64,000 nucleotides of DNA, taken from the NCBI RefSeq assembly GCF_963853765.1, contig NC_088859.1, positions 39,122,001 to 39,186,000 of the forward strand, given 5' to 3'. Every line of letters begins with the position of its first letter. Position 1 is the stretch's first letter. The DNA is from Magallana gigas (taxonomy: Eukaryota). Position numbers: made by a program. This document shows, piece by piece, positions 1 through 12,000 of this stretch.

Positions 1-3000
1 AAATGAATTTTTAAAAATCTTTTTTAATAATACAATGAAAACATTTTTATCTCAAGAATTATTTCTTTCTTCTTTAAAAATAAATTTAATCAAATTCAAT
101 TTCAATTATTCATTTATTCATCGCATTTTTAAAAGTGAACATGCATAAATAAGCATAGTAATGCAAAGTAATGCCATGTAATGCCAGCATTACACTAGAT
201 TTTGGAAAGTAATTAATTACATTACCATTAATTGTAATGCTAATTTTGTGGCATTACACATTACTAGCATTACTTTGAAAACATGTAATGCATTGCAATG
301 CATTACCATTACATTTAGCATTACCTCAAGCCTGTTTGTTTTCAGTCATTGTACTTCATAGGGGTTCTTGTATGAAATGCCAATATTTAAATTTAAGTTT
401 CGCGTTTACATGTATTCGCGAAAGTTTCGCGTTTATTCGCGAAAGTAACGCGTTTATTTGCGAAAGTTTTGCGTTTATTCGCGAAAGTAACGCACTTATT
501 CGCAAAAGTTTCGCGTTATATCGCAAAAGTAACGCGTTTATCCGCGAAAGTTTCGCGTTATATTGCGAAAGTTTCACGGTTATTCGCAAAAATTACGCGT
601 TATATCGCGAAAGTTTCGCGTTTATTCGCAAAAAAACTAAAAAAAAATTTACCTACCAAAAATGAGCTAAATAGGATTTCGTAAATTGTCTCAAATAAAT
701 GCTTTAAAAAATCTCTTATTTAAAGGATTTTGGACCGTAATTTATTGCTTGCTATAATAGATAAGTTTTACTTCGTTACATACCAAAAATAATGATATAA
801 CAGAAAATTGCATAACCCGGTTATGTTATTTTTCTGAAATACTATAACTACTTCATACTCGCATACCCCCCCCCCCCCCCCCGAAAAAAGCTTCTTTTTT
901 TGTTTAGGTGTTTCGAAGAATCGGAAATTCTGTTTAAAAAAATACCGTGGAAAGGGTTTATATTTTAACATTAAACTACGCACAGGAATCGTTCAAAAAG
1001 TCCTTGCTTTTTGACGAATGCTGAATTTTCCACGTATTGATTTTCATCGACTGAAACTCTCCTCCCCTTTTCCATATTGCTGGAACCGCTTCTGCTATTC
1101 AAAAACTTCTGGCCCCGGGGCCACGAACGTCTAGAGTCGAACTCAACGGTCTTTTTCTACTCAAATCTGTGAATTTCAACGTTCGTGGCTCCGGGGCTAA
1201 ATCTGTGTTTCTTATCAGTTTCTTATCAGTTGTTAATTCAGAAAAATGGTGGTCTACAAAGACATAGCTTTAACCGTACTTATTCTTGCATTTACTGCAA
1301 CATGCATGGCAGGTGAGATGAAATCAATGAAGGATGAAATTGCGGTCATCAGAAATTTGCTACGGGAACAAAACGAGAGGTTGACGAGACTTGAGATGGA
1401 GAACAATGCCCTGAAGATCACTGTTTCCAAGTTGGAGAATGATAATTTACTGATGAAAGATAGGTTGGAGGATATTTCTGATGAAAACAAAGCCTTAAAA
1501 CTCGAAGTAAGCGATCGCAGACAAGTGACAACAGTACTAGAAGATTCAAATCATGCAAATATGGATAAGCAGGAAGAACCTAGTGGTGCATTCGGAGAAA
1601 ATGCGGTACACCGTAAGCTAAGCACATTTAGCAGACTATTTGTAAAAAAAAAATCATAATACATTGCGCTATAAAAATTCAAGTACATCTAGACGTTTAT
1701 AATAAAAGATGTCTACGTTTTAAAAAATGCATTGTTTCCTTTTATTTGGAGATACTTTTGATTTCAACTTACAACATGTATAAGTAGTTTTTTTTATTAG
1801 GAATTATACTTGTGCAGCGTTCTTCTTCTAACACATGATAACTTAGTTGTAAACTGGTTTTTACAACGTTTCATTTTAACTGCAAACTTTCTGTAGGACG
1901 ACTCCTTCTCCCCGACGCTGGGTCCCCCTCTACCACGCCCCTACCCGTGGAGCCAGTGGCTTTCTACGCTTACATGTCAAAATCCGAGCCCACCCCAAGC
2001 AATCATCATTCGCTCATCTTTGACATGTTGAAAACCAACCTTGGAAATGGCTACAACAAATTCAGTGGAACATTTGTTGCACCATCTGCAGGGGCTTATG
2101 TGTTCACCTGGACCATCAACACAAATCCCCATGGGGCTCATTGGATTAACCTAATGGTGAACAATGTAATTGTAGGTGGTACCGTTAGTGACACACAAGA
2201 TACTGCCGACTTTGACTCTGATTCCAACACAGCAGTGGTTGTCCTTGATCAGGGTGACAGTGTTAACCTGCGTACAACACTTCCAAGCGACCGTGCTGTT
2301 TTAGTTGCGGATGTGCATGCATTTACTAGTTTTGCCGGTTGGCGACTATAGTTGGAATATAACGACTATATTTGTAATATTTGTTATCTTAAAGGTATAC
2401 TTTTTTAATAAAAGACTACAAAAACTGTGTTTGTCGTAATCTTAATTTAATTTTGAAAGAAATGTAGTAGTAATGAAACAGCCAGAAGGCGATGACACCA
2501 AATTAACAGACAAAACATGATTTTCACTTTTTTTCTTTTAATGCATGCAAATGGTTGTGATTTATAAATAAAGTGGAAATTTTCTCTTGAAATAACGTTT
2601 TTTTTTAAGTTATGATGTAAAGATAATTTCAATTAAAAGTGCTAGCGTTAATTCTGCAAACAAGGTAATGTGTGAGAAATAGATATATCACAAATTCTTT
2701 ATTCTCTAAATATTTTGAATGTGTTCAAAAATTAAGTTAGGTTTACAAGGCCAAATAGTCACAGCGCATTACACTTTTTGGGCATCATGGAACAATTTTC
2801 TTCCTTCCTTCTTTTAACAGTCACATTCTCTTTGTTTGTCCTTTATTTCCTGATTTTCTATTAAACGACAACCGAATCTGTCAAAGGTTCACGGATATGT
2901 GATTTATAAAAATGCTCTTGAAGGTCCAATGACATTCTAATGTTTGTGGGACTCTCAAAATCGTAGACTAAAGGCAGAACTGAACAGTGTTGATTAAATC

Positions 3001-9000: not shown

Positions 9001-12000
9001 TTCATAAGACTCCTATCCAAATTTTTAACGAATAATCGTCTGTTAATTTTTCGTCAAATTTCTGATTTGTCCTTTCTCCTTGCAAGTCTAAAATATCATT
9101 CAAATGGTATCTGCGTCTTTCCCGGTAGTATAGACTTCTATATACATTGAATGTACTTTGCGTTAAAAAATTCATCATCTAAATTTAAGTCTGCTCAGTA
9201 CAGCGGAATGGTTTACTATAACATGCGCACCTGTTCACTCGTCCATGAATAAAGGGTGTGTTTGGTTAGGCTATTGGGTATGGTACTATTTGAATCATAA
9301 ATGAGCTAGATCCTTTTGTATTACAGCACAGTTGGATATGTGAATGGGTCAATGCTTCTTTGAGATTCAATGGGGGAATTTTATTTAGTAAGATAAATAA
9401 CTCGATAGTGTTGAATAGTTTAGAGAAAACATCCCCTACTCGGGCCTTCAGCCCTCGGAGGGAATGTTTTCTCTAAACTATTCAACACTATCTCGTTATT
9501 TACCCATTACATATTTACGCAATGGCTTTGGAAAGGATATTCGAGCTTTACATACCAAAAATTAAAGCATATAAGATTTTTGGGGGAATTGCGCAGTGTT
9601 CTTGAAATAACAGTACAAATTAAAGTCAAGATGATTTGTTAGTAATTCAAATTTATTTTGAGTATCAAAGAGTTCTTATCAGTAGAAAATATATAATGGC
9701 TTTGATCACATTTGGCAGATGTTGTAGCATCCATCGCACTAGATAATTAAAAGGCATGGCAGGTTAGATGTGGTGAAATCAATGATTATTAATCTGTTTT
9801 TTCTTTACTGATTCGCTTTATGCTATACTTGATAATATTTATAAAACATGTTAAACTTAATGCTACAACATACTATATACTAGTAATACGTTTATTTATT
9901 TTTATCTGCAATGGACTGATTATTCTACTTTACCAATCTCTGATCCATATTTAGAGGTTTCTTATCAGTTGAAAATACGAGAATTTAGTTACAAACATGA
10001 CTTGGACCATACTTACTCTAGTATTTGCTGCAATATGTTTATCTCTAAGCATGGCTGATGAGATGAAATTAATGAAAAATGAAATAGCGGTCATCAGAAA
10101 TTTGCTACGGGAACAAAACAAGAGGTTGACGAGACTTGAGATGGAGAACGATGCCCTGAAGATTACTGTCACTAAGTTGGAGAATGATAATTTACTGATG
10201 AAAGATAGGTTGGTAAACATTTCCGATGAAAACGAAGCTTTGAAACAAGAAGTATCCGACCTTAGAAGACACGTGACAACAATACAAGAATATTCTAATA
10301 TTGAAAATCTGGATAAGCAGGAGGAACCCAGTGGTGCCTTTAGAGAAACTGCTGTACATCGTAAGTGCAGTTATCAAACTACTTGTATTTTCTTTAAAAA
10401 AAAAAGTCAATTAAACAGACGCTTAAAATTAATAGATACATTTTTTAGAAAAACGTTTTATTTCCTTTAAATCATTCTAATATACGGTATACGGAAAAAC
10501 GTAATTTTAACTTACCACAAGTGGCATTATTTCATCAGGAACAATATTTGTGCAGCCTTCTTTTAACAATTAACACGATATAGACTAATGGTCAATTTGT
10601 TACTTTATATGTAACCGTTTCTATCCTAACTGTTGACTTTTTTGTAGGACGCCTCCTCCTTTCTGACGCTGGGTCCCCCTCCACAACGCCTCTACCCGTG
10701 GAGCCAGTGGCCTTTTACGCTTACATGTCAAAATCCGAGCCCACCCCAAGCAATCATCATGCGCTCGTCTTTGACGTGTTGAAAACAAACCTTGGGAATG
10801 GCTACAATAAGTACAGTGGAACATTCGTTGCTCCATATGCAGGGACATATGTCTTCACCTGGACAATCAATATAAATCCCCATGGGGCTCACTGGATCAA
10901 CTTGATGGTTAACGATGCCGTTGTTGGGGGTACACTTGCTGACACACAAGTTACAGGTGACTTTGACTCCGATTCTAACACAGCAGTGGTTGTCCTAAGT
11001 CAGGGAGACAGCGTCATCCTACGTACAACAAGTGCCAGTGACACAGCGAACATACATGTAGATTCACGTGCATTCACTACTTTTGCTGGATGGCGCCTTT
11101 AGTTGTATTGTCCATGATATAAGTCACAGGCAAACTTTCCCAATTAAAGACTTAAAAATATAAATCAGTTCTAATTTTATTCTTACAATTATTAAAGGCT
11201 AGGAAAAACGAACAATACAATATATTCTCACTCTTTTGCTCACAGAAATGAATGTGAAAGTTGATATAAATCATAGCCATTTTTAATAAAATATTAGCAT
11301 GGAGGTAGATTGATACACAACAGTGTGAAAATATCTACTACTGTACTATTCAGGCGAATATATTGTTTTAAGTCAAATGTTTGAAGTACATGTCTGTAAA
11401 AATAAGTTTTCATATTATGAAACGCTTTAATAGATTGATATTGTCATTTTGTAAACACAATGTTACATGTAAAATTACTTTGATGAAATTGTAAACAAAT
11501 AAATTGAAATATACATAAACAGAAAAAGGAGGGTGATTAAATAAACTCTATCATAGATCACCCTACATTATCACAGATTACATGTAATATATATTTGTAA
11601 TTACAAAATTACTGCCATACATCAAATAAAATACATTATGTAAAATGTTCTGTATTACATGCTCCTGCAAATAAATTTAAATATATCTGAATTGTAAATG
11701 GAAAAATAAAAATTGACCTGAAAAAACATTTGTACAATACATTACCACACAGATCACAGTAACAATACTCAGACTAGGCGAGTAAATTAAGTAATTCACT
11801 TACACAGTTTAGCATATCATCGTAGTTTATCACACTGATGTAAACACTTCTGCACAATATATGTCAATAAATAAAAATTACACAGCAGTCTATTCCATTT
11901 AACATAAACATTACAGAACACATTAATTTTTTCGCTCATCTACCAGTGCTATGGCTCTTACAAAAATCCCCACATGCTATAAATACCGTAAGAATATAGC

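What the first reader, a model, noticed from the sequence alone, without database searches (positions are those of the whole stretch)
1246..11102. Patchwork sequence exchange among C1qDC paralogs, with a sharp boundary inside the C1q domain
Hand counts: copies 1 and 2 differ at only 6 of about 246 nt in the first part of exon 2 (1897-2142 versus 4114-4359), but at about 52 of the last 210 nt, switching abruptly after GGGGCTCAT. In exon 1, copy 1 pairs with copy 4 (about 6 differences in about 127 nt of coiled-coil sequence), while copy 2 pairs with pseudogene copy 3. The exon-2 end and 3' flank pair copy 2 with copy 4. Inference: gene conversion or unequal crossover homogenises scaffold segments while the C-terminal half of the globular head, the likely ligand-contacting part, diversifies.
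Basis: partly seen in the sequence, partly recalled or inferred. Interest (0 to 1): 0.65.

Follow-up and report, generated by a model that had tools for sequence, protein, structure and literature searches.

The report
Gene-conversion patches among tandem C1q genes
Four neighbouring copies of a secreted C1q-type immune lectin gene have swapped two short internal stretches of DNA, a well-known process in tandem gene families that is real here but ordinary in kind.

Summary
Four head-to-tail, two-exon copies lie at 1246-11102: three intact and one pseudogene. Each has a signal peptide, a heptad coiled coil and a C1q domain.

Elsewhere in the gene (5' flank, intron, exon-2 end, 3' flank), copy 1 is the outlier and copies 2 and 4 are closest. 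Two short internal patches break this background:
- Copy 1 1342-1468 is near-identical to copy 4 (6/127 differences).
- Copy 1 1885-2142 is near-identical to copy 2 (6/258 differences).

Both patches beat 1000 of 1000 site-order permutations and have 1000/1000 bootstrap support. Synonymous sites behave the same way: 5 of 59.5 versus 28 of 49.3. Selection therefore cannot explain the pattern.

The best reading is interlocus gene conversion, and the "sharp boundary" is simply the end of one tract. The C-terminal half does carry about 3.7-fold more amino-acid-changing differences. However, dN/dS stays at 0.16-0.37, so diversifying selection is not shown. An assembly artefact could not be tested. 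This is a known mechanism in a new example, of moderate-to-low interest.

The parts
1246..1612 (+). Copy 1, exon 1: signal-peptide-like N-terminus plus heptad coiled coil, 122 codons plus 1 nt (phase-1 intron follows, donor GT at 1613-1614).
   Evidence: Read directly. ORF. Translation. Hydrophobic residues fill 73% of a/d heptad positions against 36% overall. Pfam gives only sub-threshold coiled-coil-type hits.
1897..2351 (+). Copy 1, exon 2: linker plus globular C1q domain, stop codon TAG at 2349-2351.
   Evidence: AG acceptor and TAG stop checked. Pfam C1q PF00386, E=3.4e-19, 69.8 bits against a cut-off of 23.7. PDB profile hits to cerebellin-1, caprin-2, C1q and adiponectin.
3503..3866 (+). 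Copy 2, exon 1.
   Evidence: a/d heptad hydrophobic fraction is 78% against 37% overall.
4114..4568 (+). Copy 2, exon 2 (C1q domain).
   Evidence: Pfam C1q E=8.2e-20.
7714..8566 (+). Copy 3, a pseudogene. Exon 1 carries frameshifting indels, a 15-nt tandem duplication (7800-7831) and a (CT)13 insertion (7902-7927). Exon 2 is cut off after about 175 nt and is followed by unrelated spacer.
   Evidence: Alignment. Tandem repeats. tblastn finds only 7778-8101 and 8393-8566. Broken reading frames.
9997..10360 (+). Copy 4, exon 1.
10648..11102 (+). Copy 4, exon 2 (C1q domain).
   Evidence: Pfam C1q E=5.3e-20.
1342..1468 (+). Conversion tract 1 as seen in copy 1 (coiled-coil part of exon 1). Its partner is copy 4.
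   Evidence: 6/127 differences, with mismatches at 1341 and at 1469-1471 bounding the tract. Scan: 25/31 sites, 0/1000 shuffles. Quartet c1c4|c2c3 in 1000/1000 bootstraps. dS is 0.124 for c1-c4 against 0.53-0.61 for the other pairs.
10087..10213 (+). Conversion tract 1 as seen in copy 4, the favoured acceptor.
   Evidence: Coordinates. Direction: 14 c1c4|c2c3 sites in 120 columns. About 3.2 are expected if c4 were the donor (Poisson p=6.6e-6). About 10.5 are expected if c1 were the donor (p=0.17). At 2 of the 6 residual differences c4 shares its base with c3.
1885..2142 (+). Conversion tract 2 as seen in copy 1, the favoured acceptor. It covers the last 12 nt of the intron plus the first 246 nt of exon 2 (linker and N-terminal half of the C1q domain).
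   Evidence: 6/258 differences. Scan: 25/31 sites, 0/1000 shuffles. c1c2 is the closest pair in 1000/1000 bootstraps. Synonymous differences 5/59.5 inside against 28/49.3 after the tract, p=4e-8. c2-c4 is unchanged across the boundary (p=0.67), whereas c1-c4 changes (p=0.013).
4102..4359 (+). Conversion tract 2 as seen in copy 2, the favoured donor or donor-like copy. The 5' end abuts an intron deletion specific to copy 2 that was not transferred to copy 1.
1208..1232 (+). Conserved 14-nt upstream motif, doubled in copy 1. It also occurs at 3462-3475, 7667-7680 and 9958-9971. Copy 1's homology with the other copies starts here.
   Evidence: 5 matches against 0.08 expected; 0/100 shuffles reach 5. 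BLAST homology of c1 begins at 1218.

Best explanation
The locus is a tandem array of four paralogs of a secreted C1q-domain protein. Each has a signal peptide, a coiled-coil stalk encoded in exon 1, and a globular C1q head encoded in exon 2. Copy 1 is the oldest and most diverged member. Copies 2, 3 and 4 come from later tandem duplications that also copied about 0.3-0.9 kb of upstream DNA. Copies 2 and 4 additionally share downstream DNA.

On this background, two short non-allelic (interlocus) gene-conversion events copied sequence between paralogs without moving the flanks.
1. A 127-nt tract in the coiled-coil exon lies between copy 1 and copy 4, which are about 8.7 kb apart. Copy 1 is the likely donor.
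2. A 258-nt tract spans the intron/exon-2 junction between copy 2 and copy 1, which are about 2.2 kb apart. Copy 2 is the likely donor.

The abrupt change after position 2142 is the 3' end of the second tract. Both events are old enough to have gathered 6 differences each (dS about 0.09-0.12).

Separately from conversion, the C-terminal half of the C1q head tolerates or favours more amino-acid change than the N-terminal half.

Shown: the mosaic, its statistical support, and its presence at synonymous sites. Inferred: the mechanism (heteroduplex repair between misaligned tandem copies), the direction of transfer, and the biological rather than assembly origin.
For: Architecture:
- C1q domain in all three intact exon-2 products, E 3e-19 to 5e-20.
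- PDB relatives: cerebellin-1 2.3e-22, caprin-2 7e-14, C1q 7e-12.
- Heptad a/d hydrophobicity 73-78% against 36-37% overall.

Background tree (copy 1 as outlier):
- c2c4 is the closest pair in 948/1000 (5' flank plus signal peptide), 997/1000 (intron), 973/1000 (exon-2 end) and 1000/1000 (3' flank) bootstraps.
- c1 has 31 singleton sites in the intron, against 8-16 for the other copies.
- c1 shares no flank homology beyond 1218-2354.

Patches:
- The scan statistic reaches 0/1000 shuffles for both.
- Bootstrap support is 1000/1000 for each.
- Quartet sites are 14:2:0 in tract 1 and 7:0:0 in tract 2.

Not selection:
- c1-c2 dS is 0.089 inside the tract and 1.06 after it.
- Synonymous counts are 5/59.5 against 28/49.3, p=4e-8.
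- Third-position patterns give Fisher p=3.5e-5 for tract 2 and 1.2e-3 for tract 1.

Internal patches rather than a single crossover:
- The c1 intron just upstream differs from c2 at 82/217, and exon 2 downstream at 52/209.

Direction:
- Tract 2: c2-c4 synonymous divergence is flat across the boundary (p=0.67), while c1-c4 changes (p=0.013).
- Tract 2: c1 carries the odd base at 5 of the 6 residual differences.
- Tract 1: see the Poisson comparison.

Not a simple collapse:
- Each tract keeps 6 scattered differences.
Against: - No reads, second haplotype or orthologous locus were available. A chimeric assembly or a mis-polished consensus cannot be excluded.
- Donors may be paralogs outside the window rather than the copies named.
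- Direction rests on small counts. For tract 2, a branch-ratio argument using copy 3 (counts) gave an intermediate result: 7 c1c2|c3c4 sites, where by my own arithmetic on those counts roughly 3 or roughly 13 would be expected under the two directions.
- The 3' part of exon 1 (1465-1612) fits neither the background nor a clear tract. There c1c2 is closest in 631/1000 bootstraps and c2c4 in 364/1000. The enrichment is marginal at 43/500.
- The tracts were delimited on the same data that were then tested segment by segment. Only the scan test corrects for this.
Confidence: 0.8

Rival explanations
1. Assembly or polishing artefact. Reads from one paralog were used to build or correct the consensus of another, creating read-length patches of false similarity.
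For: The patch sizes (127 and 258 nt) are on the scale of short reads. Tandem paralogs about 76% identical overall, with locally higher identity, are hard to assemble.
Against: Each patch keeps 6 differences spread along its length, whereas a collapse or mis-polish should give identity. The surrounding sequence is more than 20% diverged, which makes mis-mapping of reads unlikely. The patch ends are clean and the reading frames are intact.
Confidence: 0.07
2. Unequal crossing-over between misaligned copies produced hybrid genes. The patches are what is left of crossover junctions, or result from double crossovers.
For: The array itself must have grown by unequal exchange. The published account of oyster C1qDC clusters invokes unequal crossing over (PMC6835236, passages read). 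Copy 3 is truncated in exon 2, which could be a deletion junction.
Against: A single crossover gives one breakpoint and exchanges everything on one side. Here the background relationship returns on both sides of each patch, and the flanks of copy 1 are unrelated to those of copies 2 and 4. Two crossovers 127 or 258 nt apart cannot be told apart from a conversion tract by their products.
Confidence: 0.08
3. No exchange occurred. The near-identity reflects strong purifying selection or a low local mutation rate in the N-terminal half of the C1q domain and in part of the coiled coil.
For: The first half of exon 2 is the more conserved half in every pair, with dN 0.005-0.045 there against 0.155-0.188 in the second half.
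Against: Synonymous divergence between c1 and c2 drops 12-fold inside the tract, while c2-c4 synonymous divergence does not change. The identity of the closest copy changes, not only the rate. The tract includes 12 intron bases.
Confidence: 0.02

Closest known systems
Bivalve sC1q-like type II C1qDC genes in tandem clusters (Crassostrea virginica; PMC6835236, passages read)
   Same: - Signal peptide, coiled coil and C1q architecture.
- Two exons and one intron.
- Tandem paralogs, with the intron more diverged than the exons.
[quoted passage not shown]
   Different: That paper explains the clusters by tandem duplication, unequal crossing over and episodic positive selection. The words conversion, recombination, GARD, mosaic and chimeric each occur 0 times in its main text. 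Here the salient signal is patchwise exchange between already diverged copies. The organism of this window is unknown to me, so belonging to a bivalve is an inference from the architecture and was not tested.
Interlocus (non-allelic) gene conversion in tandem multigene families generally, including immune receptor families. The snail FREP example is cited in PMC11674123 (passage read). Other textbook cases are recalled, not checked.
   Same: Short internal tracts of about 10^2 nt between nearby same-strand paralogs. Flanks are not exchanged. Synonymous and intronic sites are affected.
   Different: In this window, only two events among four copies are seen. There is no sign of ongoing homogenisation (concerted evolution) and no sign of somatic diversification.
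Vertebrate C1q/TNF-superfamily globular heads (cerebellin-1, caprin-2, C1q, adiponectin; PDB hits)
   Same: The exon-2 products match the C1q Pfam model end to end (positions 1-125 of 127) and match the solved gC1q domains.
   Different: There is no collagen stalk; a coiled coil takes its place. Trimer formation and ligand specificity were not tested here.

Membership tests
C1q domain-containing protein (Pfam PF00386) | Significant full-length match to the C1q domain model | tested here: met
   Three intact exon-2 products score 69.8-72.4 bits against a cut-off of 23.7, covering model positions 1-125 of 127. A profile search finds 27 PDB sequences, all from gC1q-type domains.
sC1q-like type II architecture (signal peptide + coiled coil + C1q; definition from PMC6835236) | Coiled-coil region N-terminal to the C1q domain | tested here: met
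   A single heptad register puts hydrophobic residues at 73-78% of a/d positions over residues 23-100, against 36-37% overall. Pfam gives only sub-threshold hits to coiled-coil families. No dedicated coiled-coil predictor was run.
sC1q-like type II architecture | N-terminal signal peptide | tested here: inconclusive
   A hydrophobic stretch follows the start codon in copies 1, 2 and 4 (translations). No signal-peptide predictor was available.
sC1q-like type II architecture | Exons actually spliced as modelled (one mRNA) | not testable with these tools
   GT/AG sites and a phase-1 junction that keeps the frame were read directly. No transcript data were available. The joined protein was not built or searched.
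Interlocus gene conversion | A tract in which one paralog pair is far more similar than in the sequence on both sides of it | tested here: met
   Both tracts: 0/1000 shuffles reach the observed cluster, and bootstrap support is 1000/1000.
Interlocus gene conversion | Similarity shared by silent sites (synonymous or intronic), so it is not due to protein-level selection | tested here: met
   The last 12 intron bases are identical in c1 and c2 (0/12).
Interlocus gene conversion | Non-reciprocal transfer (donor unchanged) | tested here: inconclusive
   Divergence to third copies points to c2 into c1 and c1 into c4. Counts are small and there is no outgroup.
Interlocus gene conversion | The mosaic exists in the organism's DNA rather than only in the assembly | not testable with these tools
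   No reads or second assemblies were available. Six residual differences per tract argue against a collapse.
Hybrid gene from a single unequal crossover | One breakpoint, with all sequence and flank on one side derived from the other copy | tested here: not met
   The background relationship returns on both sides of each patch. The flanks of copy 1 are not homologous to those of copies 2 and 4.
Diversifying (positive) selection on the C-terminal half of the head | dN/dS above 1, or site-level tests passed | tested here: not met
   The segment-wide dN/dS is 0.16, 0.17 and 0.37 for the three pairs. Only elevated nonsynonymous divergence is shown (7/183.5 vs 22/157.5, p=0.0014). Site tests need many more sequences.

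The most novel reading that the evidence does not exclude
Conversion acts here as germline module shuffling. The coiled-coil stalk would set which paralogs can co-assemble, and the N-terminal and C-terminal halves of the C1q head would be exchanged as separate cassettes. Tract ends would be held at structurally tolerated joints, such as the one after residue 81 of the exon-2 product. Copies 1 and 4 would then share a stalk and could form mixed trimers with different heads. Large C1qDC arrays would gain combinatorial recognition diversity from exchange as well as from point mutation.
Probability: 0.08. Interest if true: 0.6.

Novelty: new member of a known kind. Interest (0 to 1): 0.3.

Why it matters
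C1qDC genes are among the most expanded candidate pattern-recognition families in bivalves. Their evolution is usually described as tandem duplication followed by positive selection. If short conversion tracts are common among neighbouring copies, three things follow.
- A gene tree of such a cluster is not one tree.
- Duplication dates taken from whole-gene divergence are biased.
- Codon-model tests that assume a single tree can be misled unless the alignments are partitioned at breakpoints.

The paper I read on oyster clusters does not mention recombination screening in its main text. I could not see its supplements. The case here is small: two events among four copies. It does not change what is known about the mechanism.

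Tried and rejected
- Structure. An AlphaFold2 model of the exon-2 product, built from the only alignment available (three window copies), came out at mean pLDDT 40.8. I therefore made no fold search and did not map variable residues. The strand positions it gave are not relied on. The second structure job and the complex job were not used. A homotrimer of a C1q head would pass by likeness to solved structures and would not bear on the finding.
- Further tracts. After masking the two patches, nothing reached significance: c1=c2 at 1301-1575, 43/500; c1=c4, 354/500; c2=c4, 219/500.
- More copies or a repeated element. No further C1q copy exists in the window. The copy 3 to copy 4 spacer (8540-9600) matches nothing else in the window.
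- Literature. Searches for C1qDC or C1q with gene conversion, recombination, or mollusc/bivalve terms found no paper reporting conversion among bivalve C1qDC genes. The two hits for 'C1qDC' plus 'gene conversion' use the terms in unrelated places. One was checked. The other (PMC6015906) was seen only in the listing. A broader search gave only general papers, seen as a listing.
- Script error. One search stopped on an assertion of my own, caused by all-gap columns in the alignment slice. One search repeated the analysis with those columns removed.
- Not possible. No relatives from other genomes, haplotypes or reads could be compared. The remaining collections hold prokaryotes, phages and plasmids only, so I did not query them.
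- Left out. The spliced (joined) protein was not built, searched or folded. Every search used one exon at a time.

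
Full report
**What is there**

The first 12 kb of the window hold four head-to-tail copies of one gene on the + strand. A tblastn search with each exon product separately finds no further copy in the 64 kb, and the window has no N.

Each intact copy has two exons split by a phase-1 intron with GT/AG ends (read directly; checked).

| Copy | Exon 1 | Exon 2 |
|---|---|---|
| 1 | 1246-1612 | 1897-2351 |
| 2 | 3503-3866 | 4114-4568 |
| 4 | 9997-10360 | 10648-11102 |

Copy 3 (7714-8566) is a pseudogene.
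- It has frameshifting indels, a 15-nt tandem duplication and a (CT)13 insertion in exon 1.
- Its exon 2 stops after about 175 nt.

**Identity of the gene products**

Exon 2 products:
- They match the Pfam C1q domain end to end, with E 3.4e-19 to 5.3e-20.
- As a profile they find solved gC1q heads: cerebellin-1 2.3e-22, caprin-2 7e-14, C1q 7e-12 and adiponectin 1e-11, among 27 sequences in all.

Exon 1 products:
- They start with a hydrophobic stretch.
- They then show one heptad register with 73-78% hydrophobic a/d positions, against 36-37% overall.
- Pfam gives only sub-threshold coiled-coil-type hits.

This architecture is what the oyster literature calls sC1q-like type II (PMC6835236, passages read). 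I searched exon by exon. The joined, spliced protein was not built, searched or folded. The organism is not known to me; a bivalve is an inference from the architecture only.

**Check of the observation**

- Copies 1 and 2 differ at 6 of the first 246 nt of exon 2 and at 52 of the last 209 nt. The first mismatches fall at 2143 and 2144.
- Copies 1 and 4 differ at 6 of 127 nt over 1342-1468.
- Copies 2 and 4 are the closest pair in the exon-2 end (38/209, against 52 and 55 for the other pairs) and in the 3' flank.
- In the 3' flank, c2-c4 homology runs about 300 nt beyond the stop codon and resumes at 5368-5576 / 12502-12730. Copy 1's homology to the others ends at 2352-2354.

The statement that copy 2 pairs with copy 3 in exon 1 holds only as an unrooted split: 14 sites against 2 and 0. 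Those two copies still differ at 31/153.

**Is it more than chance?**

I classified the 300 variable, ungapped sites among copies 1, 2 and 4 (copy 1 coordinates 1218-2351) by which two copies agree.

| Segment (copy 1 coordinates) | c1=c2 | c1=c4 | c2=c4 |
|---|---|---|---|
| 5' flank | 0 | 1 | 6 |
| Signal peptide | 5 | 4 | 10 |
| 1316-1470 | 8 | 28 | 3 |
| 1471-1612 | 14 | 6 | 13 |
| Intron | 21 | 18 | 44 |
| 1885-2142 | 25 | 0 | 5 |
| 2143-2351 | 16 | 13 | 30 |

A scan for the best-enriched run, judged against 1000 shuffles of site order, gave these results.
- c1=c2 at 1886-2141: 25/31 sites, 0/1000 shuffles as high.
- c1=c4 at 1344-1464: 25/31 sites, 0/1000 shuffles as high.
- c2=c4: no cluster (192/1000).

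Column bootstraps agree.
- The closest pair is c1c4 in 1000/1000 for tract 1 and c1c2 in 1000/1000 for tract 2.
- It is c2c4 in 948 (5' flank plus signal peptide), 997 (intron), 973 (exon-2 end) and 1000 (3' flank).
- With copy 3 included, the quartet is c1c4|c2c3 in 1000/1000 for tract 1. It is c1c2|c3c4 in 998/1000 for the part of tract 2 that copy 3 still has.

After masking both tracts, no further cluster is significant (best 43/500). The stretch 1465-1612 remains ambiguous: c1c2 is closest in 631/1000 and c2c4 in 364/1000.

**Selection or exchange?**

Silent sites tell the same story.
- Nei-Gojobori dS for c1-c2 is 0.089 in the first 81 codons of exon 2 and 1.06 in the last 69. As counts, that is 5 of 59.5 synonymous sites against 28 of 49.3 (Fisher p=4e-8).
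- Third-codon-position patterns switch with p=3.5e-5 (tract 2) and p=1.2e-3 (tract 1).
- The last 12 intron bases are identical in copies 1 and 2.

Constraint on the protein therefore cannot explain the near-identity.

**Which mechanism?**

Both patches are internal. On either side of each, copy 1 returns to being the outlier. Its flanks share nothing with those of the other copies beyond 1218-2354.

That is the footprint of non-allelic gene conversion. A very close double exchange would look the same, but a single unequal crossover would not.

The exact limits are as follows.
- Tract 1 is copy 1 1342-1468 = copy 4 10087-10213.
- Tract 2 is copy 1 1885-2142 = copy 2 4102-4359.
- The 5' end of tract 2 abuts an intron deletion private to copy 2, which copy 1 did not receive.
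- Each tract keeps 6 scattered differences. This gives dS of about 0.12 and 0.09 and argues against a simple assembly collapse.

**Direction (inferred)**

Tract 2:
- c2-c4 synonymous divergence is the same on both sides of the boundary (16/59.5 vs 16/49.5, p=0.67).
- c1-c4 changes across it (20/59 vs 29/50.5, p=0.013).
- Copy 1 is therefore the mosaic copy, and a copy 2-like sequence was the donor.
- At 5 of the 6 residual differences copy 1 has the odd base.
- A branch-ratio argument using copy 3 (counts) was intermediate, so this direction is only moderately supported.

Tract 1:
- The density of c1c4|c2c3 sites is 14 in 120 columns.
- This matches the density of copy 1-private sites elsewhere in exon 1 and its 5' flank (about 10.5 expected, p=0.17).
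- It does not match the density of background c2c3 groupings (about 3.2 expected, p=6.6e-6).
- This points to copy 1 as donor and copy 4 as acceptor.

Donors outside the window cannot be excluded.

**The C-terminal half**

In the c2-c4 pair, which the exon-2 conversion did not touch, nonsynonymous differences rise from 7/183.5 to 22/157.5 across the boundary (p=0.0014). Synonymous divergence stays level.

The C-terminal half of the head therefore does change faster at the protein level. This agrees with the oyster study, which found selected sites more frequent in the C-terminal part (PMC6835236, passage read).

But dN/dS there is 0.16-0.37, so positive selection is not shown. Three sequences do not allow site tests. 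The structural model was too poor (pLDDT 40.8) to place the variable residues.

**Comparison with what is known**

Interlocus gene conversion among tandem paralogs is textbook knowledge (recalled). It is cited for snail FREPs in PMC11674123 (passage read).

For bivalve C1qDC genes:
- The paper I read attributes cluster evolution to tandem duplication, unequal crossing over and episodic positive selection.
- Its main text contains none of the words conversion, recombination, GARD, mosaic or chimeric. I could not see its supplements.
- Four searches found no report of conversion among these genes.
- A preprint on hemizygosity in molluscs discusses C1qDC presence/absence but not conversion.

I therefore file this as a new example of a known mechanism.

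**What remains open**

- Whether the mosaic is in the animal's DNA or only in the assembly.
- The true donors.
- Whether such tracts are frequent across the family.
- Whether tract ends have any structural meaning.

None of these could be tested.

**Verdict**

The best explanation is two short interlocus gene-conversion tracts on a background in which copy 1 is the oldest paralog (confidence 0.8). Interest is 0.3.

Noticed in passing
window 1208-1232, 3462-3475, 7667-7680, 9958-9971: A 14-nt motif lies 13-33 nt upstream of the start codon of all four copies, the pseudogene included, and is doubled in copy 1. It gives 5 matches against 0.08 expected by chance. It contains a TTATCA core, the reverse of a GATA-type site as I recall it (not tested). 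It may be a promoter or 5'-UTR element of this gene family. A weaker second copy lies about 300 nt upstream of copy 4 (about 9668-9692; alignment score 34 against a shuffle maximum of 25).
   Followed up: partly
window 1246-1266: Copy 1 has ATA (1264-1266) where copies 2-4 have their start codon. It uses an in-frame ATG 18 nt upstream (1246), which adds six residues to the N-terminus. It also lacks 12 nt within the signal-peptide region (alignment; translations).
   Followed up: partly
window 2127-2136 (also 4344-4353 and 10878-10887): A perfect 10-nt palindrome sits six bases before the 3' end of conversion tract 2 and is kept in all three intact copies. Whether it has anything to do with where the tract ends is unknown.
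   Followed up: no
window 8566-9572: The spacer that replaces the missing 3' part of copy 3 matches nothing else in the window. It holds nested palindromes at 8643-8735 and a 52-nt hairpin at 9394-9502 that is 88% complementary. It may be the remains of a small foldback element.
   Followed up: partly
window 413-633: A minisatellite of 21-nt units (10.5 copies, also readable as 84-nt units) lies upstream of copy 1.
   Followed up: no
window 6006-6168 and 6355-6517: An inverted repeat of about 163 nt at 71% identity lies in the copy 2 to copy 3 spacer.
   Followed up: no
window 13853-14560 (-) and 62734-63294 (+): Neighbouring open frames match a class I SAM-dependent methyltransferase domain (PF08241, 1.9e-16) and the start of a sulfotransferase domain (PF00685, 4.3e-6). 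An open frame at 55452-55817 contains a long acidic run and had no Pfam hit.
   Followed up: partly
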